Shown here piece by piece: positions 5,245 to 34,336 of a DNA stretch of 39,727 bases (positions within the stretch are counted from its first letter, which is position 1; each line of letters opens with the position of its first letter). Source of the DNA: a virus; IMG/VR virus record IMGVR_UViG_3300046513_000137, positions 1 through 39,727 of that record; one strand, given 5' to 3'. Made by a program: the position numbers and the translations under genes. The notes beneath the pieces were generated by a model. That model was not told the origin of the DNA and ran no database searches. It saw only the letters and a program-made list of their open reading frames with translations.

Positions 5245-5519
5245 TCTGCGGCCTCCCTGAAATGGCGTTGAAGACGGCTCTCGGCGTTATGTCCGGTGAA
5301 GCTCTCGACATCGGTACGGCGCATGAGGCGCTGGAACTGGAAGACCTCGCCCCCGTGCTTGTCGGCGTCATCTTGCGCTTCCTGCTCGGTCTCGTATTCG
5401 AACGGCTCGACGAGCTGGCTTGAGGTCCAGAACATCGTCTGCAGGTCGGCGTTGTATGCGAGGAACAGCGCTGTTCCGTGGGCTGGGTTCTCGACGTGGT
5501 AGCGATCGACGAGGGCCAT
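5241..5519 (-). CDS. hypothetical protein (92 aa)
   Basis: Start is the internal ATG 5519 (MALVDRYH...). There is a TGATG overlap with the stop of 5519..5863. Confidence 0.6.
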   Translation of the reverse strand: MALVDRYHVENPAHGTALFLAYNADLQTMFWTSSQLVEPFEYETEQEAQDDADKHGGEVFQFQRLMRRTDVESFTGHNAESRLQRHFREAAE

Positions 5520-5863
5520 CACGCGGCCTCCTTCCAATCGAAGGCGCGGAGAGCAAGCTCGACCTCTGCCTTGACAAGATCGCTCGGCAAGCTGCGAAGG
5601 AACTCGACGAAGCGGAGAACGTGCTCGACGGGGACGTAGCCCTTAACTTCGCAATCCTGAATATCGATCATTGCGTCGTCGGTTGCCCAAACCGCTATCT
5701 CGGCTGTTTCAGACGCCGGGAGAGGGTTTTTGTGGTCGATATGGTAGCTCGGGTAATCATAATTCTGGCAGTAGTTGCCGCGCCCGATCTGGATCGAAAT
5801 CGTCAGGCCGTTCTCGAACGTGAGATGCACGCCCTTTCCGTCCGTTATCCTGATGCTTGCCAT
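5519..5863 (-). CDS. first gene of the leftward early operon, hypothetical (114 aa)
   Basis: Start is the internal ATG 5863 (MASIRITDG...). GAGAGGA lies about 8 nt upstream. Confidence 0.65.
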   Translation of the reverse strand: MASIRITDGKGVHLTFENGLTISIQIGRGNYCQNYDYPSYHIDHKNPLPASETAEIAVWATDDAMIDIQDCEVKGYVPVEHVLRFVEFLRSLPSDLVKAEVELALRAFDWKEAA

Positions 5864-5940
5864 CTGCCTGTCCTCTCTCGATGCCGATCGACGTTTCGCG
5901 TGCTTCCTTGCGGGGCTCATTCGTCTCGGCTGGTGAGGAT

Positions 5941-5969
5941 CACTGTAACAGTTTATGCTACATAGTCAA
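5941..5969 (-). promoter_or_regulatory. Candidate leftward early promoter (PL) with embedded operator
   Basis: On the minus strand: -35 TTGACT (5969-5964), a 16-nt spacer, then -10 TACAGT (5947-5942). The imperfect inverted repeat TGTAACA-GTTTA-TGCTACA (5944-5962) fills the spacer and the -10. Confidence 0.45.
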
Positions 5970-6009
5970 CTGGGTGTCGCATCGGATGACGCAAATTATT
6001 TGACATATC

Positions 6010-6024
6010 TGCTGCAATGTAGCA
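6010..6024. promoter_or_regulatory. 15-bp near-palindrome TGCTGCAATGTAGCA (operator-like)
   Basis: 12 of 14 arm positions are self-complementary. It shares the TGTAGCA/TGCTACA half-site with 5956-5962 and 8313-8319. Confidence 0.4.
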
Positions 6025-6061
6025 AAAAGAAAAGCGCCGGAGGGATGATCCGACCGGCGCT
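6022..6061 (-). terminator. Rho-independent terminator for leftward transcription coming from the Arc-like gene side
   Basis: Stem AGCGCCGG (6033-6040) pairs with CCGGCGCT (6054-6061) around a 13-nt loop. On the minus strand the stem is followed by TTTTCTTTTTG. Confidence 0.6.
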
Positions 6062-6088
6062 TGCAGCAAGATAGAAGAACACGCTCGT

Positions 6089-6109
6089 TATAACATTACA
6101 TTTGTTATA
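6089..6109. promoter_or_regulatory. AT-rich 21-bp inverted repeat TATAACA-N7-TGTTATA
   Basis: Read directly from the sequence. The arms are perfect 7-mers. It lies in ORF-poor DNA and the half-site resembles TGTWACA. Confidence 0.35.
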
Positions 6110-6569
6110 GGCAAGCGAAATCACGCTGCAAGGTGCTGAAAAGCGCAAAATCTTGGGCCTGCTCGGATGTTCCCGCCAAGATGATGTGCTCAGAGGTGCA
6201 AAGGCAGCGGTTTTTCAAGGGCATTGCCCCGCTCCGCCGATCATTCCGGCAAATCAATCCCAACGCGGTACCGATGCCAGGCTCATCGGGCGGAATCGAA
6301 CGGGGTTGATGGCCCGCCGGAGAAACGAGTTTGCAGCTCGCCGGGAAACTGAAGCAGCTTATACCGAGCGCTAAAGAAAAGGCGCTTGCTCGTATCGGGG
6401 ATAAATGAGCCTGACCAGCTCGATAAAAAGCCTTCCCCCGGTGTTGGACCCAGTAGCGGCTGGGAAAACAAACCGAGCTTCAGATGAGGTTGGTTCCACG
6501 GATGCTAGGCGCTGGTATGGCAGTGCAGGACTGGATGTCTCTGTGTTAGAGACCATCCTAATGCCTAGG

Positions 6570-6848
6570 TTATACCTGAAGACCAGAAACAGCCTCAATC
6601 TTCTCAACGATCGACCGCCAAATTGCCTCCTGATCATCGGGTGGCGACAGTCTCACCAAATCTGCGATGTCTCGAATATACACATCCAGGATAGCGTCCG
6701 GCGGGTAGGCTCGTTCAAGCAATACAAGCAACTCGGCATTTACCGATCGGTCGTTCCTCTCCGCAACTCGGCGGATTCGCTCCTTGAGCCCATCCGGCAG
6801 ACGGATGATGATCTTGTCTAGAGATCGGCTAGGGCTTTGATCGCTCAT
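6570..6848 (-). CDS. Arc/Mnt-type ribbon-helix-helix DNA-binding protein (92 aa)
   Basis: Start is the internal ATG 6848 of ORF 6570..6980. The sequence MSDQSPSRSLDKIIIRLPDGLKERIRRVAERNDRSVNAELLVLLERAY matches the Arc-domain pattern (f.lRlP..l...l...A...grS.NaEi). Confidence 0.75.
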   Translation of the reverse strand: MSDQSPSRSLDKIIIRLPDGLKERIRRVAERNDRSVNAELLVLLERAYPPDAILDVYIRDIADLVRLSPPDDQEAIWRSIVEKIEAVSGLQV

Positions 6849-7090
6849 CGAAAATGCATAGCGGTTGCAATTAACCAAATAAATATTGGCCACTGGCCAT
6901 ACCGAAGTTGGTTCTGGCCGGGTCGGGGCTGCTTGATTACGATAGGTTGCGTGGGGAGCCGGAGGAGGATCGCCCCTCATGTCGAGAGTGCTTCAATCAA
7001 TGCAAGGAAATTTCAACATGAGAATGCATCACAATTTCGCAGTGCCTATTTTTTCAATCAATAATTGTGTGTATTTCGTTAATTTCAAAA

Positions 7091-7109
7091 CACCTCCTAG
7101 TTGGAGGTG
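7091..7109 (+). promoter_or_regulatory. Shine-Dalgarno-sequestering hairpin in front of 7116..7466
   Basis: CACCTCC (7091-7097), loop TAGTT, then GGAGGTG (7103-7109), giving a perfect 7-bp stem. GGAGGTG is the only SD and lies 6 nt before ATG 7116. Confidence 0.5.
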
Positions 7110-7115
7110 CGACAA

Positions 7116-7466
7116 ATGAATGCGGTTGTTACTCCATCTACAGGCGTGCTGTCCGACCGATTCAGGGTTCATCCCATTGTTGGGGATGCGTGGGAGCCAG
7201 TTCTTCGCGGCGGTCGCGACTATGTTTTGACCGCCCCGGTAACGTCATACGAAGGCGAGGGGGTCTATCTGGTCGATGCAGGATTGGGAATTGAACTGTT
7301 TCGGGTCACCAACGTTCTCGGGCTCGACGGCGAGCTGTTGCTGTCTCGAGAAAACAGGACGTACCGATCGCACCACATGGCGCGTGAGAAATTCAACGAC
7401 GTTGTGGTTGGGATTGTAGTGGCGGACTTGCGCGTCCGTGACGAGAGATACATCACGCGAGCATAA
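7116..7466 (+). CDS. Stand-alone S24 (LexA/CI C-terminal domain)-like protein lacking the HTH domain and both catalytic residues (116 aa)
   Basis: ATG 7116 follows the GGAGGTG SD. By eye it aligns with the CI C-terminal domain. GDAWEPVLRGGRDYVL matches CI GDSMTPTIEDGDVVFV (Ser to Ala). IELFRV matches VVVKRL (Lys to Phe). LSRENRTY matches ISSDNPRH. VVVGIVV matches IQIVGRYI. Confidence 0.7.
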   Translation: MNAVVTPSTGVLSDRFRVHPIVGDAWEPVLRGGRDYVLTAPVTSYEGEGVYLVDAGLGIELFRVTNVLGLDGELLLSRENRTYRSHHMAREKFNDVVVGIVVADLRVRDERYITRA

Positions 7467-7471
7467 GCGGC

Positions 7472-7488
7472 TGGGCGGCTAGTCCGCC
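7472..7488. terminator. Hairpin between the convergent genes 7116..7466 and cI
   Basis: GGGCGG (7472-7477), loop CTAGT, CCGCCC (7483-7488), followed by TTCTTC on the plus strand. There is only a weak U-tract. Confidence 0.4.
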
Positions 7489-7493
7489 CTTCT

Positions 7494-8225
7494 TCAGATC
7501 GTGAAGCGGCCGATATAGCGCCCGACGATCTGGATTTCGTCGAGGTTAAGCTCTCGGGTCGAATGCCTTGGGTTGTCAGATGAAATCTGAACAGTGATGA
7601 TTTCGTCGCCGGGACGCGAAGTCACTTCAAGGCGCTTCACCACCACGCCGCCAAATTCATCAGCGAGCGCATAGATCCCTGGCGGGGAAGGAACGCGATG
7701 CCTGGTGTCGACAAATACGACATCGCCATCCTCAATAGTGGGGGTCATGGAATCACCCCGTGAAGGGAAGGCGGCAACATGCGGCGCCCTCACGCCCATG
7801 CGCCCAAGCATCCAATCAGGAAGCCGCCAGTGGTCTCGCACAGCCTCACGGGCAAAGGAAATCCCGTTTCGGCTTGATACCTCCAGCGCAGCAAATCCGC
7901 CGCCGCCTAGGCCGGCAATCAAATCGATTTCCGGGATATCCTTGGAGTTGGTCTCTGGCCTCAAGTCGTCCTGATCTTCATGCTCATCTGGATCGAACGT
8001 CGCCAAGATAGGAGCGTCAGCTTTCGGGGGACGGTTGAGCATCAGCGCCTCTACGGTTGTCTCAAGCAGAGAGGCCATCTTCTCGGCTCGATCTCTCTTG
8101 AGCTGAGTGTGATCATTGGCGAGTCGATTGATGGTAGCGCGCGAAACATCCAATGCTTCAGCGAGCGCTTCCTGTGAGCCAATTTTTGATGCTTTGAGAA
8201 AAGGATCGAGCCAATTTTTTGACAT
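7494..8225 (-). CDS. cI: CI-type prophage repressor (N-terminal XRE HTH + C-terminal S24 autopeptidase)
   Basis: HTH is SQEALAEALDVSRATINRLAND. The S24 catalytic Ser is in AAFPSRGDSMTPTIEDGD and the Lys is in GGVVVKRL. It is transcribed divergently from the cro-like gene. Confidence 0.9.
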   Translation of the reverse strand: MSKNWLDPFLKASKIGSQEALAEALDVSRATINRLANDHTQLKRDRAEKMASLLETTVEALMLNRPPKADAPILATFDPDEHEDQDDLRPETNSKDIPEIDLIAGLGGGGFAALEVSSRNGISFAREAVRDHWRLPDWMLGRMGVRAPHVAAFPSRGDSMTPTIEDGDVVFVDTRHRVPSPPGIYALADEFGGVVVKRLEVTSRPGDEIITVQISSDNPRHSTRELNLDEIQIVGRYIGRFTI

Positions 8226-8282
8226 GGCGATTTATCCGCCATCTTTGGTAAACGATCTATGCCATAAAATGTTACACTGCCA

Positions 8283-8320
8283 TTGACATTGGTCGTAAAG
8301 TGTCGCAATAATTGCTACAT
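8283..8320 (+). promoter_or_regulatory. Candidate rightward early promoter (PR) with overlapping operator-like palindrome
   Basis: -35 TTGACA (8283-8288), a 17-18 nt spacer, then -10 CAATAAT (8306-8312). The perfect 11-bp palindrome GCAATAATTGC (8305-8315) and TGCTACAT (8313-8320) overlap the -10 and the start. Confidence 0.5.
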
Positions 8321-8516
8321 GACACTCGAACAGTATATTCATCAGCACACCACTGTAACAGCTTTTGCTGCTTTGCTGGGCAAGAGCCGGGCCCAAGTGC
8401 ACCGGTACATGCGCGGTGAAAATCTGAGCAAGAGCGTCATCGAAGAGATTTGCCGCGTAACTGACGGGGCTGTCGAACCAAAATCGTTCTTTGAAGTCGT
8501 GGAGAGCGCGGCATGA
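8319..8516 (+). CDS. cro: Cro-type small HTH regulator (65 aa)
   Basis: Start is the internal ATG 8319 of ORF 8283..8516. MTLEQYIHQHTTVTAFAALLGKSRAQVHRYMRGENLS has a Cro/YdaS-like HTH. It is divergent from cI. Confidence 0.8.
   Translation: MTLEQYIHQHTTVTAFAALLGKSRAQVHRYMRGENLSKSVIEEICRVTDGAVEPKSFFEVVESAA
8351..8371. promoter_or_regulatory. Second copy of the PL operator box, inside the cro-like ORF
   Basis: CACTGTAACAGCTTTTGCTGC here compared with CACTGTAACAGTTTATGCTAC at 5941-5961. 18 of 21 positions are identical and the first 11 are identical. Confidence 0.45.
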
Positions 8517-9045: not shown

Positions 9046-9362
9046 GCAACTTTCGCGTAGGGCAGAAGGTCGTTTGTGTCAGAAGTTGGGAGAACCTCTA
9101 CGGGCACAAGAACATCTCTGGGCCTCTTGAGGGCGAAATTTACACGATCCGGGAAATTGGTTTCATCCATCCTGACCGACCTGACATCTTGACGGTGCGG
9201 TTGGCTGAGATCGTTAACAGCGAATTGGACTCGGAAGAGTACGGCAAGTGGGAGCCTTCTTTCGCTGCCTACAGATTTCGCCCGCTCGTTGAGCGCAAGA
9301 CCGACATCTCCTGTTTCACCAAGCTTCTGAAGACGAAGAGCCTGGAGGAGTTGGCCCAATGA
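9042..9362 (+). CDS. hypothetical early protein (106 aa)
   Basis: Listed in the ORF track. GTG start overlapping the upstream stop. Confidence 0.7.
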   Translation: MSNFRVGQKVVCVRSWENLYGHKNISGPLEGEIYTIREIGFIHPDRPDILTVRLAEIVNSELDSEEYGKWEPSFAAYRFRPLVERKTDISCFTKLLKTKSLEELAQ

Positions 9363-10766: not shown

Positions 10767-11528
10767 ATGACGGCCTACTACAATGAGATCGATCCATACG
10801 CAGCCCAATGGCTCCGCAATCTCATAGCAGCCGGTCACATCGCGCCAGGCGACGTAGACGAACGGAGCATCGTGGATGTCCACCCAGACGACCTTAGAAG
10901 CTATACGCAGTGCCATTTCTTCGCTGGAATCGGAGGGTGGTCCTACGCGCTTCGTCTTGCGGGATGGTCCGACGATCGACCTGTTTGGACAGGTAGCTGC
11001 CCCTGCCAGCCGTTCTCGGTCGGCAACGTTGCCCATGGCGGAGCGAAAGGCCAAGGCGATGAACGGCATCTCTGGCCGACTTTCCGAGACCTCATCGTCG
11101 AGCGATCGCCTTCAACAGTCTTTGGTGAGCAGGTTGCAGACGCGATTGGCTGGGGATGGTGGGACGAAGTTGCCCTTGACCTGGAAGCGCGCTCATACGC
11201 CTGCGCGGCGGTCATACTCCCAGCTAATGCTATCGGAGCAAGGCACAGACGCAAACGGCTCTTCTGGCTGGCCGACGCCGGCAGCGAGAGACGGAAAGGA
11301 CATCAGCCGATCGAACGCCTTTCTGTCGCAGCGCAAGCGCCACTCGCCATCGATGGCAACCCGCTTGTTGGAGCAGGGCGCGCACTGGACGGTGATTACC
11401 GCGATCTACTGCCTTGCGATGGGCTATCCGTCTCCGTGGAACGTCTTGCGGCCAAAGGATACGGCAACGCCATCGTCCCGCAGGCAGCGGCAGAAGTGAT
11501 CGGCGCCTACATGGAGATCGCAGCATGA
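10767..11528 (+). CDS. compact DNA (cytosine-5) methyltransferase
   Basis: Motif I FFAGIGGW, motif IV SCPCQPFS, motif VI-like VFGEQV, motif VIII-like GARHRRKRLFWLA, motif X GYGNAIVPQAA. See the finding on the fully open +1 frame. Confidence 0.8.
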   Translation: MTAYYNEIDPYAAQWLRNLIAAGHIAPGDVDERSIVDVHPDDLRSYTQCHFFAGIGGWSYALRLAGWSDDRPVWTGSCPCQPFSVGNVAHGGAKGQGDERHLWPTFRDLIVERSPSTVFGEQVADAIGWGWWDEVALDLEARSYACAAVILPANAIGARHRRKRLFWLADAGSERRKGHQPIERLSVAAQAPLAIDGNPLVGAGRALDGDYRDLLPCDGLSVSVERLAAKGYGNAIVPQAAAEVIGAYMEIAA

Positions 11529-12530: not shown

Positions 12531-12730
12531 TCAACCATGCCGATCGTCAACGCGCCGTCATCTACAAGGAAGGGCTCAAGCTCGTCGAGGAAGACGTATC
12601 GCTTGAGGCATTCGTCATGGGCGTCAACCGCCGCAAGTGGCCAGTTGGTGCCCGCCACTTTTGGGCCTTGTCTCAAGTCTGGGCCCCACGAAACGCAGCA
12701 ATTCCAGAGCCGAAGGAAGCAGCCCAATGA
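12527..12730 (+). CDS. hypothetical protein (67 aa)
   Basis: Listed in the ORF track. ATGA overlaps on both sides. Confidence 0.6.
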   Translation: MINHADRQRAVIYKEGLKLVEEDVSLEAFVMGVNRRKWPVGARHFWALSQVWAPRNAAIPEPKEAAQ

Positions 12731-13293
12731 ACATGAGACCAGACATTGACATCAACAAAGCGTCAGAGATGTGGAACGGCGGCTTTTCGGCAGGGGCAAT
12801 CGCGGCGGAATTCGGCGTAACTCGAAACGCCATCATCGGCATATCGCACCGCAACCGGGATATGTTCCCACACAAGCCGCTTAGAGGCAGCCGCTACACA
12901 CCGGCTGCAGAGCGCGTTCTTGCTCCCAAGCGGGAACTGACACCGGAAGAACGGGAACAACGCAACCTGCGCCAAGCTGAGCGGCGCCGGAAGGCAGCAG
13001 AGGGTAGAGCGCTCACCGACAAGCAGCGCATCGAGGCTTCGAAGGAGGAGGTGGCAGAGTTCAAGGCCGGCACGTCCCGCTTTCTGCGCATTCACCCTGA
13101 TGATGAGCCTCGGCTGGCAACAGGCAAGCTTCTTCACGAGCTGGAGCAGCATGAATGCCATTTTCCGCTCAATCACGGTGGCCCGTTCCTCTTCTGCTCC
13201 GAGGCCACAGAGGCGGGAGCATCATACTGCGAACACCACAGAGAACGGTCGATGCCTCCACTTGAGCGGCGACGACTGAAAGCAGCAGCATAG
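12727..13293 (+). CDS. GcrA-family cell-cycle-regulator-like transcription factor (188 aa)
   Basis: Start is the internal ATG 12727. The N-terminus WNGGFSAGAIAAEFGVTRNAIIGISHR matches the GcrA HTH. The C-terminus HECHFPLNHGGPFLFCSEATEAGASYCEHH matches the GcrA C-terminal Cys/His block. Confidence 0.8.
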   Translation: MNMRPDIDINKASEMWNGGFSAGAIAAEFGVTRNAIIGISHRNRDMFPHKPLRGSRYTPAAERVLAPKRELTPEEREQRNLRQAERRRKAAEGRALTDKQRIEASKEEVAEFKAGTSRFLRIHPDDEPRLATGKLLHELEQHECHFPLNHGGPFLFCSEATEAGASYCEHHRERSMPPLERRRLKAAA

Positions 13294-13304
13294 CAACGAG
13301 GGAC

Positions 13305-13916
13305 ATGACCATGGCGGCAAAATGGTTTTGCATCAGACTCAAACCCCAAGCGCAGCGACCTGCCAAGCAGGATCCGCGCATCACCAACATCGAGTTCTCT
13401 CTACGGCAGGAAGGCTTTGACCACTACATGCCTCTGGAGCGGCGTGAAATCGTGCACCACAGGACCAAGAAGCCGATCGACAAGCAATACCCGCTCATCC
13501 CAGGCTATGCCTTCGTCTGCGACGTGGACGACTGGCTGCGCCTCAACAACTGCGATTTCGTGGCCGGTGTCCTCGGTGTGAGGGGAACCCCCATGCCGAT
13601 CATGCCAACGGTCATTGACGCCGTTCGCGATGCCGAGGCCGTCATCCTCTCCGAATACGAGAGGCAGAAGGCCATGCGCCGCCAGCGGGAGAAAGAGCAG
13701 GCCGACCGTCTGCAGCACATTCCGCAGCGCCGCGCCCGTCAGATGTACCCAGCAGGAACGCCAATCGTCATCGACCGCACGCACGTCCTCCTTGGCGGCA
13801 TGAAGGGTAGGGTAGTGGACGCAACCGGCCGGCAGACCATCAAGGCAGTGATTGAAACGCTCAACGGCATGGTGAATGCAGAGCTGTCGTTGGCATTTGT
13901 GGAGAAGGTGGCGTGA
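13305..13916 (+). CDS. NusG/RfaH-family transcription elongation/antitermination factor (NGN + KOW)
   Basis: The NGN domain is marked by WFCIRLKP, YPLIPGYAFV and VAGVLGVRGTPMPI. The KOW-like C-terminus is GTPIVIDRTHVLLGGMKGRVVD. Confidence 0.75.
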   Translation: MTMAAKWFCIRLKPQAQRPAKQDPRITNIEFSLRQEGFDHYMPLERREIVHHRTKKPIDKQYPLIPGYAFVCDVDDWLRLNNCDFVAGVLGVRGTPMPIMPTVIDAVRDAEAVILSEYERQKAMRRQREKEQADRLQHIPQRRARQMYPAGTPIVIDRTHVLLGGMKGRVVDATGRQTIKAVIETLNGMVNAELSLAFVEKVA

Positions 13917-33197: not shown

Positions 33198-33223
33198 GCA
33201 AGCCAACATATTATCGGTTGCAC

Positions 33224-34336
33224 ATGGAAAAAAGTAGCCGTTTCGAGTTCATCCATCTGCTTCGCGGCTTCGCGCCGCTGCTCGTCGTATGGGCTCACCT
33301 TGCGGACTGGTGGCCTAACCGGAATGGAATCCATTGGGTAGGTCAGGACATCTGGCTGGAATGGGTCGTCAGACCTCTGCAGCTCTCCCAATTCGGCGGC
33401 CATCTCGGCGTTGTTGTCTTCTTTCTCATCAGTGGGTTTGTGATAACTCACGTATCGCTGAGAGAGACCAGAGAGGCTTTCGCCGCTCGACGCGTCTATC
33501 GGCTGGCTCCGGTACTGTTCATTGCAACCGTCCTAACTGTACTCGCGGCAAGGTTCACCAACTGGATGGGCTCGCCTCCGATGATCGGAGTAGGTGCCAC
33601 GTCTTCGGTCGACGTTCTCCTGAATGTGACGCTACTTTCGTGGTTCGTGGGAACCCCATGGGTTTTGAGCGTGACGTGGACGCTCCTGATCGAGGTCGTT
33701 TTTTACTGCATCGTACTGGTGGTAATCCCGATCAGCGGGAAGGCCCCTGTACGAGCGACGGTTGTCATGCTGCTGCTGTCGATAGCGGTTATCGTCCCCG
33801 TCCAACTCCTGAGCGATGACTCGGCTCAATATCTGGATAGGATCATCTATCTTCCGTTCCTGATCTGCGGGCGGTGTCTGTATTTTATGCGGGACAGGTT
33901 CTCGTGGCGATGGGTTTCCCTTGCAGGTATAAGCCTACTTCTCTTCGGAGCATTCCATGTGATGCGCTTCGGGGATGGTCTATGGGCTTCCAAATACCCG
34001 CCTGTTGCCACCTACGGGATCGCCTTGGCGATGTTCATTGGCTGCATGTACGCGCCACTAAACAGGACTCCGCAGCCGTTCCGCTGGCTGGGTGACATCA
34101 GTTATTCACTATACCTGCTTCACCTTCCGGTAGGCGCGACTATCCTCGCCGTGGCTACGAAGTTTGGACTTCCATTCGCCCCGGCGTTCATCTTAGCAAT
34201 CGGTGTCAGTTGCCTAGTGTCTACGGCCTCATACAAGCTGGTAGAGGTTCCATTCCAAAGCCTCGGTAGGCGACGGGCGCGACCGGGGCAAATCGGGCTC
34301 AACCTCTACGCCGAGATGCGAAAGCCGAAGGCGTAA
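33224..34336 (+). CDS. acyltransferase family 3 (OafA/YrhL-type) integral membrane O-acyltransferase
   Basis: FEFIHLLRGFAPLLVVWAHL is followed by about 10 hydrophobic segments, then ISYSLYLLHLPV. This pattern is typical of the AT3 family. ATG 33224 is preferred over TTG 33218. Confidence 0.85.
   Translation: MEKSSRFEFIHLLRGFAPLLVVWAHLADWWPNRNGIHWVGQDIWLEWVVRPLQLSQFGGHLGVVVFFLISGFVITHVSLRETREAFAARRVYRLAPVLFIATVLTVLAARFTNWMGSPPMIGVGATSSVDVLLNVTLLSWFVGTPWVLSVTWTLLIEVVFYCIVLVVIPISGKAPVRATVVMLLLSIAVIVPVQLLSDDSAQYLDRIIYLPFLICGRCLYFMRDRFSWRWVSLAGISLLLFGAFHVMRFGDGLWASKYPPVATYGIALAMFIGCMYAPLNRTPQPFRWLGDISYSLYLLHLPVGATILAVATKFGLPFAPAFILAIGVSCLVSTASYKLVEVPFQSLGRRRARPGQIGLNLYAEMRKPKA

What the first reader, a model, noticed from the sequence alone, without database searches (positions are those of the whole stretch)
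6570..7493. HTH-less CI C-terminal-domain (S24) paralog with both catalytic residues replaced, paired with a divergent Arc/Mnt-type repressor beside cI: candidate new anti-repressor / secondary-immunity switch
**What the sequence shows**
- 7116..7466 encodes a 116-aa protein. By eye it aligns end to end with the S24 autopeptidase domain of the adjacent CI repressor (7494..8225).
- It has no DNA-binding domain.
- Both catalytic positions differ. CI has GDSMTPTIEDGDVVFV and VVVKRL. The small protein has GDAWEPVLRGGRDYVL (Ser to Ala) and IELFRV (Lys to Phe).
- Later blocks also correspond: LSRENRTY to ISSDNPRH, and VVVGIVV to IQIVGRYI.

**Context**
- The gene is convergent with cI, with a 27-bp gap that holds a hairpin.
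- It is transcribed divergently from an RHH Arc/Mnt-type gene (6570..6848) across a 267-bp AT-rich region.
- Its only SD is locked in a perfect 7-bp hairpin.

**Interpretation**
- The topology recalls P22 immI (mnt / arc-ant), but the ant position is taken by a protease-dead CI-CTD-only protein.
- One plausible mechanism is a decoy that heterodimerises with the CI C-terminal domain. That could poison repressor oligomerisation, giving RecA-independent induction. Alternatively it could shield CI from cleavage.
- I do not know of a described anti-repressor of this kind.
Basis: partly seen in the sequence, partly recalled or inferred. Interest (0 to 1): 0.82.

Follow-up and report, generated by a model that had tools for sequence, protein, structure and literature searches.

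The report
Dead LexA-like domain protein beside cI
A P22-like rhizobial prophage carries, tail-to-tail with its cI repressor gene, a small conserved protein with the fold of the repressor's self-cleaving domain. It lacks the DNA-binding domain, the cleavage site and both catalytic residues, and is probably an undescribed kind of repressor modulator, most likely an anti-repressor.

Summary
Window 7116-7466 encodes a real 116-aa protein under purifying selection (dN/dS about 0.07-0.24).

- **Fold:** it has the LexA/CI C-terminal (S24) fold (AlphaFold pLDDT 90.8). The top 46 PDB fold matches are all S24/S26 proteins.
- **What is missing:** there is no HTH and no cleavage-site region. Ala and Phe replace the Ser/Lys dyad.
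- **Age:** it is not a recent copy of the neighbouring cI. It belongs to an old family (319 clusters at 50% identity). Among 124 aligned members the Ser position is free and the Lys position is Tyr/Phe.
- **Position:** in rhizobial prophages the gene sits tail-to-tail with an intact cI in 50 of 56 viral contigs. It travels with the CI C-terminal-domain type. It lies between the CI operators OL (5944-5993) and cI, so it is inside the immunity region.
- **Arc pairing:** the Arc gene next door recurs but is not universal.
- **Other contexts:** relatives follow AntA/ANT antirepressor genes, or are fused to ORF6N or Rha domains.

My best reading is a CI C-terminal-domain mimic acting as an anti-repressor (confidence about 0.42, untested). 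No paper describing such a protein was found.

The parts
7116..7466 (+). Gene for a 116-aa protein with an S24 (LexA/CI C-terminal domain) fold. It has no HTH and no Ala-Gly cleavage region. Ala25 and Phe62 stand where the catalytic Ser and Lys would be.
7494..8225 (-). cI repressor: HTH_3 plus Peptidase_S24 with an intact GDSM...K197 dyad and an Ala-Gly linker. Convergent with the small gene.
7467..7493 (.). 27-bp gap between the two stop codons. It holds the hairpin GGGCGG(7473-7478)-CTAGT-CCGCCC(7484-7489), followed by TTCTTC on the + strand.
   Evidence: Stability is not above shuffles (z -0.25 on +, -1.2 on -). In many relatives the two genes overlap by 4-11 bp instead.
6570..6848 (-). 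Arc/Mnt-type ribbon-helix-helix protein, 92 aa from the conserved MSDQ start. Divergent from the small gene.
6849..7115 (.). Divergent control region. Promoter-like sites: + strand 7036-7065 (TTCGCA-18-AATAAT) and - strand 7088-7061 (TTGAAA-16-AATTAT). A 17-nt inverted pair lies at 6865-6881 and 7072-7088. No CI operator is present.
   Evidence: The motif TTAACCAAATA near the Arc start is kept in 8 of 9 Arc-bearing loci; the second copy occurs only in the window type.
7091..7109 (+). Hairpin CACCTCC-TAGTT-GGAGGTG that contains the SD.
   Evidence: z -2.5. Not conserved.
8258..8319 (.). OR: two CI operators of the type TGTNNCA-N5-TGNNACA (8258-8276, 8301-8319). They overlap PR (8283-8312, TTGACA-18-AATAAT) and the cro start.
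5942..5993 (.). OL/PL: two CI operators (5944-5962, 5975-5993) overlapping a leftward promoter (5969-5942, TTGACT-16-TACAGT). That promoter serves gene 5519-5920.
8319..8516 (+). cro-like HTH gene (65 aa from the ATG at 8319).
5995..6565 (-). Conserved non-coding element downstream of the Arc gene. It ends in a - strand intrinsic terminator (6054-6036 plus a T run) just before PL, closing the leftward unit of the immunity region.

Best explanation
**What it is**
- The 116-aa protein is a pseudo-peptidase: the bare S24 core of a LexA/CI-type repressor.
- It has no DNA-binding domain, no cleavage loop and no Ser/Lys dyad.
- It is a fixed resident of the immunity region of P22-like and other rhizobial prophages. 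It is encoded tail-to-tail with a cleavable CI, between OL and cI.

**Most likely mechanism (inferred, not shown)**
- It docks onto the C-terminal oligomerisation/cleavage domain of S24-type repressors as a domain mimic. This is the way SinI acts on SinR.
- Docking weakens CI dimerisation or cooperative operator binding.
- It would therefore act as an anti-repressor giving a RecA-independent route to derepression.
- In this phage its promoter is not under CI operators. It shares a divergent control region with an Arc/Mnt-type repressor, which is the likely off-switch in the lysogen.
- Convergent transcription into cI may add interference in cis.
- In satellite-like integrative elements the same protein would act in trans on a resident prophage repressor.

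**Shown:** fold, loss of the dyad, selection, synteny, operator map.
**Inferred:** binding partner, direction of the effect, control by the RHH protein.
For: **Fold and homology**
- AlphaFold pLDDT is 90.8.
- The top 46 Foldseek PDB hits are LexA, lambda CI, 186 CI, UmuD' and signal peptidase.
- The family HMM hits the adjacent CI at 5.8e-11.
- 80 of 124 relatives match Pfam S24.

**Catalytically dead family-wide**
- The Ser column reads A25/N22/S21/G18/T13 and the Lys column reads Y69/F21.
- No member has both S and K.
- Control: 104 of 110 true CI ORFs show S and K in the same columns.

**Real gene**
- dN/dS is 0.07-0.24.
- A purine-rich SD-like sequence precedes the start in most homologues listed.

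**Linkage to cI**
- An intact-dyad CI lies convergently downstream in 50 of 56 IMG/VR loci and in 9-10 of 21 genome loci.
- The nearest small-protein relative has the same CI C-terminal-domain type in 42 of 45 pairs, while the CI N-terminal domain swaps freely. Examples against the window: L032 has small 0.82, CTD 0.93, NTD 0.18; L007 has 0.59, 0.28, 0.76.

**Regulatory logic**
- The CI operators are specific to the CI N-terminal-domain type. They flank the module in all 12 same-immunity loci and are absent from the small gene's promoter region.
- Arc-domain genes lie divergently upstream in the window clade (13 loci) and in the integrase/primase elements L016, L076, L079, L081 and L087.

**Association with antirepressor-type proteins**
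- The gene lies downstream of an AntA+ANT gene in L018 and directly after a Rha+ANT gene in L086.
- It is fused to ORF6N in P0169 and to a Rha-like N-terminus in P0200.

**Precedent**
- SinI/SinR is a precedent for an HTH-less domain mimic acting as an antagonist (PMC3163267, found).
Against: - No interaction could be predicted or tested. No multimer prediction was available.
- Identity to the adjacent CI C-terminal domain is only about 20%.
- The small protein is more conserved than its presumed target. The two CI C-terminal-domain types are about 30% identical to each other, yet their partner small proteins are about 58% identical.
- Co-inheritance with the C-terminal domain is confounded by the tail-to-tail adjacency, where the gap is 35 bp or less, or the genes overlap.
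- In 11 of 21 species-representative genome loci and in several distant members no S24 repressor lies within 4-6 kb.
- One distant member sits among head and tail genes, like a moron.
- The position between OL and cI, without CI operators, is where lysogen-expressed accessory genes such as lambda rexAB sit (my own knowledge). An anti-repressor there needs another tight off-switch, and the Arc gene is adjacent in only 13 of 78 loci.
- The second copy of the candidate 17-nt operator is not conserved, even in L012.
Confidence: 0.42

Rival explanations
1. It modulates RecA-stimulated self-cleavage rather than acting as an anti-repressor. The dead S24 core would occupy activated RecA filaments, or cap the CI (or LexA) C-terminal domain or its cleavage loop. 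Either action slows CI autocleavage and raises the induction threshold. This is a shield or decoy that stabilises lysogeny.
For: - S24 C-terminal domains are what activated RecA filaments bind; the fold hits include LexA-RecA and lambda CI-RecA complexes.
- The G-D-x-M-E-P-T-L-R cleft motif is conserved although the nucleophile is lost.
- Every partner CI keeps an intact dyad.
- A host-conserved target such as RecA would explain two things: the small protein is more conserved than the CI C-terminal domains, and it also occurs in elements without an S24 repressor.
- A location inside the immunity region with no CI operator fits expression in the lysogen.
Against: - Co-inheritance with the CI C-terminal-domain type is not needed for a RecA decoy.
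- The gene is placed in operons with AntA/ANT and is fused to ORF6N or Rha domains, which points to derepression modules.
- It lacks the cleavage-site region, which contributes to recognition by RecA in LexA (my own knowledge, not tested).
Confidence: 0.2
2. It is a lysogen-expressed accessory (moron-type) protein whose target is not the phage's own repressor. Examples would be exclusion of or defence against other phages, or interference with other elements' S24 regulators. It simply occupies the variable slot between cI and OL, as rexAB does in lambda.
For: - It occupies the slot between OL and cI, has its own promoter and has no CI operator.
- The left flank is highly variable.
- Distant members lie in unrelated contexts, including a head-tail junction of a Rhodoplanes phage-plasmid and tandem copies amid structural genes in L024.
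- The window protein gives a weak PADLOC HEC-01B match (E 1.9e-4).
Against: - The PADLOC hit is absent in six other members.
- A strict tail-to-tail position with cI in 50 of 56 loci is unusual for a free moron.
- Homology to the repressor's own interaction domain would be a coincidence.
Confidence: 0.2
3. It is a UmuD'-like, ready-processed accessory subunit for a translesion polymerase, like HumD of phage P1. Such a subunit needs no catalysis.
For: - UmuD' structures are among the fold matches (TM about 0.6).
- It lacks the N-terminal arm, as UmuD' does.
Against: - LexA and CI rank above UmuD'.
- There is no match to the UmuD-like PHROG.
- None of the 10 large structural-region ORFs scanned against Pfam is a Y-family polymerase.
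- No LexA box lies upstream in any of 73 loci.
- The dyad that UmuD-like proteins retain is lost family-wide.
Confidence: 0.04
4. It is a decaying remnant of a former repressor gene with no function.
For: - Loss of the HTH and of the catalytic residues.
Against: - dN/dS is 0.07-0.24.
- The family has 319 clusters at 50% identity with conserved length and motifs.
- SD sites are conserved.
- The fold prediction is confident.
Confidence: 0.02

Closest known systems
LexA / lambda CI / UmuD autopeptidases (MEROPS S24, Pfam PF00717)
   Same: - Same beta-rich catalytic-core fold.
- Same structural motif G-D-x-M-x-P-T and the Arg that follows the Lys position.
- Clear profile-level homology.
   Different: - No Ser nucleophile, no Lys base, no Ala-Gly cleavage region and no DNA-binding domain.
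- The window protein itself is below Pfam detection.
SinI-SinR (and SlrA-SlrR) of Bacillus subtilis
   Same: - A small HTH-less protein, homologous to the repressor's oligomerisation region, forms a heterodimer and lifts repression (PMC3163267).
- This is the mechanism proposed here.
   Different: - Unrelated helical fold.
- Chromosomal developmental switch.
- The interaction is demonstrated there and only inferred here.
P22 immI (mnt / arc-ant)
   Same: - The phage is P22-like in its portal and coat.
- An Mnt-sized RHH gene is transcribed divergently from the candidate antagonist. In relatives L033-L036 the control region is only about 122 bp.
   Different: - The antagonist is not an Ant/KilAC protein.
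- There is no second RHH gene in its operon.
- The module lies inside immC between OL and cI.
- The Arc partner is absent in most loci.
Phage 186 CI C-terminal domain; SipA of Streptococcus pyogenes
   Same: - Both are non-catalytic members of the same fold clan, used for protein-protein assembly. Both appear among the fold matches.
   Different: - The 186 domain is fused to an HTH.
- SipA is a membrane-associated pilus assembly factor.
P4 epsilon and Ant-type antirepressors
   Same: - Proteins encoded by satellites or phages that inactivate a repressor by binding it.
- Relatives of the small gene sit in integrase/Cox-like/primase elements and next to AntA/ANT genes.
   Different: - No sequence or fold relation.
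- The analogy rests on gene position only; the P4 map is from my own knowledge.
lambda rexAB slot
   Same: - Position between cI and OL/PL, inside the immunity region.
   Different: - Opposite orientation (not co-transcribed with cI).
- Unrelated protein.

Membership tests
S24 peptidase family (LexA/CI/UmuD) | LexA-type catalytic-core fold and detectable homology | tested here: met
   AlphaFold pLDDT 90.8. The top 46 PDB matches are S24/S26. The family HMM hits the window CI at 5.8e-11. 80 of 124 relatives hit PF00717.
S24 peptidase family (LexA/CI/UmuD) | Ser nucleophile in the G-D-S-M motif | tested here: not met
   Ala25 in the window protein. The column is variable across the family. True CI ORFs show Ser in this column in the 104 of 110 that have both S and K.
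S24 peptidase family (LexA/CI/UmuD) | Lys general base | tested here: not met
   Phe62 in the window protein. The column reads Y69/F21, with K in 1 of 124.
S24 peptidase family (LexA/CI/UmuD) | Ala-Gly (or Cys-Gly) self-cleavage site N-terminal to the core | tested here: not met
   Only about 15 poorly structured residues precede the core, and they contain no Ala-Gly.
CI/LexA-type repressor | N-terminal DNA-binding domain | tested here: not met
   No HTH in Pfam, PHROG or NCBIfam. The 116-aa protein is almost entirely accounted for by the S24 core and its C-terminal helix.
P22 immI-type secondary immunity (Mnt / Arc-Ant) | RHH repressor gene divergent from the antagonist gene | tested here: met
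   Met in the window. It holds in 13 of 78 loci with the RHH gene adjacent, and in several integrative elements at operon distance.
P22 immI-type secondary immunity (Mnt / Arc-Ant) | Antagonist of the Ant family (AntA/ANT-KilAC) | tested here: not met
   No Pfam hit for the window protein. ANT genes are neighbours, not homologues.
P22 immI-type secondary immunity (Mnt / Arc-Ant) | RHH operator overlapping the antagonist's promoter | tested here: inconclusive
   A 17-nt inverted pair lies at 6865-6881 and 7072-7088, and 0 of 100 shuffles give two matches. The promoter-proximal copy is not conserved in L012 or the other Arc-bearing loci.
Domain-mimic anti-repressor (SinI-like) | Homology to the target repressor's oligomerisation domain | tested here: met
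   Met at superfamily level only, with about 20% identity to the adjacent CI C-terminal domain.
Domain-mimic anti-repressor (SinI-like) | Physical heterocomplex with the repressor and loss of operator binding | not testable with these tools
   No multimer prediction or experiment was available.
UmuD'-like polymerase accessory | Partner Y-family polymerase gene and SOS control | tested here: not met
   None of the 10 large structural-region ORFs scanned against Pfam is a polymerase. No LexA box in 0 of 73 upstream regions.

The most novel reading that the evidence does not exclude
Dead S24 cores would be a new, widespread class of anti-repressor. They would be HTH-less mimics of the LexA/CI C-terminal domain that bind S24-type repressors and inactivate them without RecA. 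Prophages would use them as a second, RHH-gated induction switch sitting inside the immunity region. Satellite-like integrase/primase elements would use them, alone or fused to ORF6N or Rha domains, to derepress a resident helper prophage.
Probability: 0.3. Interest if true: 0.82.

Novelty: new variant of a known kind. Interest (0 to 1): 0.62.

Why it matters
- S24 repressors (LexA, CI) are the textbook SOS-linked switches.
- A conserved, catalytically dead, DNA-binding-less copy of their C-terminal domain, wired into the immunity region of many rhizobial prophages, would add a new layer to lysis-lysogeny control. That layer would be either RecA-independent induction or tuning of the induction threshold.
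- It would also be a new pseudo-enzyme branch of a classic peptidase family.
- The same protein sits in satellite-like elements and next to, or fused with, Ant-type domains. It may therefore also be a tool for cross-talk between mobile elements.
- The family (319 clusters at 50% identity) has no dedicated Pfam or NCBIfam model and no literature that I could find.
- The hypothesis is directly testable with simple genetics in Sinorhizobium or Rhizobium lysogens.

Tried and rejected
- **Pairwise BLASTP to CI** (E 0.36), **a sequence profile against PDB** (no hit) and **Pfam or NCBIfam on the window protein** (no hit). These are too insensitive; profile and structure methods were needed.
- **The first AlphaFold run** with 32 close sequences gave pLDDT 71. 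It was replaced by the 124-sequence run.
- **SD-sequestering hairpin as a conserved riboregulator.** Rejected.
- **LexA-controlled antirepressor of the Tum/Gifsy type.** Rejected, because no GTTC-N7-GTTC box occurs in any of 73 upstream regions. The box consensus is from my own knowledge.
- **CI operators in the 267-bp region.**
  - The k-mer sharing test was uninformative (an earlier version timed out).
  - The question was settled by footprinting the same-immunity group. The operators lie at OL 5944-5993 and OR 8258-8319.
- **Rfam** gave nothing for the locus, and **ARAGORN** found no tRNA or tmRNA in the window.
- **GenBank phages** gave no homologue by tblastn. **Plasmids** gave one distant hit.
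- **Collection scans with the wide alignments** failed for lack of a conserved stretch.
- **The degenerate GDxMEPTLR DNA pattern** mostly returned true CI genes. These were reused as a control for calling the dyad.
- **A second word-indexed protein search with A3** added almost nothing.
- **Look-ups of two distant members** landed on contigs too short to inform.
- **PADLOC HEC-01B hit.** It was seen for the window protein only, so I treat it as weak.
Full report

Yes. Window 7116-7466 (+) is an ATG-started ORF of 116 aa, with a GGAGG 8 nt upstream.

It is flanked as follows:
- On the right is a convergent cI gene (7494-8225, -; Pfam HTH_3 at 4.5e-8 and Peptidase_S24 at 2.2e-12).
- On the left, across 267 bp, is a divergent ribbon-helix-helix gene (6570-6848, -; Pfam Arc at 1.7e-10).
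- The two stop codons are 27 bp apart. A GGGCGG/CCGCCC hairpin lies between them.
- A perfect 7-bp hairpin (7091-7109) contains the SD.

The window as a whole is a P22-like temperate podovirus. It has a P22 portal (5.8e-202), P22 coat, Terminase_3 and an integrase.

**2. Is it an S24 domain, and is the dyad gone?**

A pairwise comparison with CI is not significant (E 0.36, 20% identity). The window protein has no Pfam or NCBIfam hit.

Homology tests:
- The protein has 69 close homologues, all 90-180 aa, from Rhizobium, Sinorhizobium and Ensifer.
- An exhaustive profile search finds 319 clusters at 50% identity. Nearly all are 105-140 aa.
- 80 of 124 diverse members match Pfam Peptidase_S24 on their own.
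- An HMM of those 124 hits this window's CI at 5.8e-11.
- hhalign of the close family against neighbouring CI proteins gives E 3.7e-4. It aligns GDAWEP with GDSMTP and F62 with the invariant K197.
- With the deep alignment AlphaFold gives pLDDT 90.8.
- The top 46 Foldseek PDB hits are LexA, lambda CI, 186 CI, UmuD' and signal peptidases. They include the inactive homologue SipA.

Dyad columns:
- Across the family the Ser column reads A25/N22/S21/G18/T13 and the Lys column reads Y69/F21.
- No member has both S and K.
- As a control I aligned ORFs recovered by a GDxMEPTLR DNA pattern to the same HMM. 104 of 110 long CI-like ORFs show S and K in those columns. The 18 small members show A/E and F/Y.

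The core starts about 15 residues into the protein. There is no Ala-Gly cleavage region and no DNA-binding domain.

The gene is under purifying selection (dN/dS 0.07-0.24, with dS near saturation). A purine-rich SD-like sequence precedes the start in most homologues listed.

It is therefore an old pseudo-peptidase family, not a recently decayed copy of the adjacent cI.

**3. Context**

The identical protein occurs on 8 contigs with the same neighbours.

Linkage to cI:
- In IMG/VR, 50 of 56 loci carry an HTH+S24 CI convergently downstream. The genes usually overlap by 4-11 bp or are at most 35 bp apart.
- Among 21 species-representative genome loci, 7-8 have CI immediately downstream and 2 have it 0.75 kb further on.
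- 11 of the 21 have no S24 repressor within 6 kb.
- All partner CIs keep the dyad.

Co-inheritance:
- The small protein tracks the CI C-terminal-domain type. Its nearest relative has the same type in 42 of 45 pairs.
- The Mantel correlation is r = 0.61 with the C-terminal domain and r = 0.48 with the N-terminal domain.
- The CI N-terminal domain swaps independently.
- This fits co-adaptation, but the physical adjacency of the two genes confounds it.

Arc gene:
- It is the immediate divergent neighbour in only 13 of 78 loci, counting this window.
- Arc-domain genes recur divergently from the operon that holds the small gene in integrase / Cox-like / DUF1376 / Toprim-DnaB elements (L016, L076, L079, L081).
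- One also lies directly upstream of a distant member (L087).

**4. Regulatory map**

I aligned the cI-cro regions of 12 loci that share this CI N-terminal domain. This gave the operator TGTAGCA-N5-TGCTACA.

The relaxed pattern, allowing one mismatch, hits the window at 5944-5962, 5975-5993, 8258-8276 and 8301-8319. There is one further hit, at 9075-9093 outside both operator clusters, which I take to be chance. Chance expectation is 0.87 matches, and 0 of 100 shuffles reach 5.

In all 12 loci the sites form one pair left of the small gene and two or three right of cI. Loci with other N-terminal domains have 2 hits in 110 kb.

The resulting map is:
- **OL** overlaps a leftward promoter (5969-5942) that serves gene 5519-5920.
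- **OR** overlaps PR (8283-8312).
- **Between OL and cI**, inside the immunity region, lie the small gene, the Arc gene and a conserved ~570-nt non-coding element that ends in a - strand terminator.
- The 267-bp control region holds no CI operator. It has promoter-like sites in both directions and a 17-nt inverted pair (6865-6881 and 7072-7088).
- Only the Arc-proximal motif is conserved elsewhere.
- The SD hairpin is not conserved.
- No alphaproteobacterial LexA box lies upstream in any of 73 loci.

**5. Links to antirepressor-type proteins**

- In L018 the small gene lies downstream of an AntA+ANT(KilAC) gene (4.6e-29), with one ORF between.
- In L086 it follows a Rha+ANT gene.
- Longer family members are fusions: ORF6N + dead S24 (P0169) and Rha-like + dead S24 (P0200). 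Both carry the family motif and lack the dyad.
- These are four independent associations with the domain repertoire of Ant/Bro/KilA-type phage regulators.

**6. Mechanism**

Best-supported reading (confidence about 0.42):
- The protein is a CI C-terminal-domain mimic that binds S24 repressors and antagonises them. This is the SinI/SinR logic (PMC3163267).
- In this phage it is gated by the divergent Arc/Mnt-type repressor rather than by CI or LexA.
- Convergent transcription may add interference with cI.

Main rivals:
- A shield or decoy that damps RecA-stimulated cleavage (0.20).
- A lysogen-expressed accessory protein with another target (0.20).
- A UmuD'-like polymerase accessory (0.04) and a dead remnant (0.02) are unlikely.

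What argues against the favoured reading:
- There is no interaction evidence.
- Identity to the CI C-terminal domain is low.
- The small protein is more conserved than its presumed target.
- Family members occur without a nearby S24 repressor.
- The gene occupies a slot typical of lysogen-expressed genes.

**7. Known or new?**

- Databases name a few members by homology, for example "S24 family peptidase" and the PHROG 6201 "CI-like repressor" (E 0.013).
- There is no homologue in 50,697 GenBank phage records.
- Seven literature searches found no paper on an HTH-less, dyad-less S24 protein beside cI.
- I class it as a new variant of a known kind: a pseudo-enzyme branch of S24, and possibly a new anti-repressor type.

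**Verdict.** Interest 0.62.

Noticed in passing
window 5995-6565 (- strand), terminator at 6054-6036: A ~570-nt stretch has no convincing ORF but is strongly conserved across prophages with different flanking genes (window, L007, L012, L031, L034, L049, L071). It folds better than shuffles (z -3.65) and ends in a strong - strand intrinsic terminator just before PL. It has no Rfam family and may be a large structured RNA or a long regulatory 3' region of the Arc transcript.
   Followed up: partly
window 5944-5993 and 8258-8319: CI operator sets OL and OR, of the type TGTNNCA-N5-TGNNACA. They were defined by footprinting 12 same-immunity loci. PR (8283-8312) ends about 7 nt before the cro ATG at 8319, which suggests a leaderless or near-leaderless cro mRNA.
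   Followed up: partly
L016 5381-5989, L076 2145-2708, L081 4244-4810, L015 5585-5989, L022 1717-2163, L009 5512-5970: Where no cI is adjacent, a 130-200 aa protein with no Pfam hit precedes the small gene. In L009 a 16-bp gap separates the two genes; in the other five the partner's stop overlaps the small gene's start. The partners in L009, L015 and L022 begin with a twin-arginine-like RRxxL stretch. Its role is unknown.
   Followed up: partly
L016 3269-9180; also L076, L079, L081: Satellite- or P4-like integrative elements with this layout: integrase, a long Arc-domain protein (183-263 aa), then divergently HTH_17/Cox-like, an unknown gene, the dead-S24 gene, DUF1376 and a Toprim/DnaB primase-helicase.
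   Followed up: partly
L024 5962-6333 and 6330-6665: Two tandem HTH-less S24-like genes with overlapping stop and start, in an alphaproteobacterial MAG next to phage structural genes.
   Followed up: no
window 10767-11528, 12637-13293, 13305-13916, 33218-34336: The phage carries a C5 cytosine methylase, a GcrA-like cell-cycle regulator, a NusG-like protein and an acyltransferase_3 (a likely surface-modification moron).
   Followed up: no
window 7116-7463 (protein): The window protein gives a weak PADLOC match to HEC-01B (E 1.9e-4, residues 32-111). Six other family members do not reproduce it.
   Followed up: partly
window 6887-6899 (- strand): A terminator-like hairpin, TGGCCAGTGGCCA plus a T-rich tail, lies inside the leader between the leftward promoter-like site (7088-7061) and the Arc start. 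It is conserved in L012 and may attenuate Arc expression.
   Followed up: no
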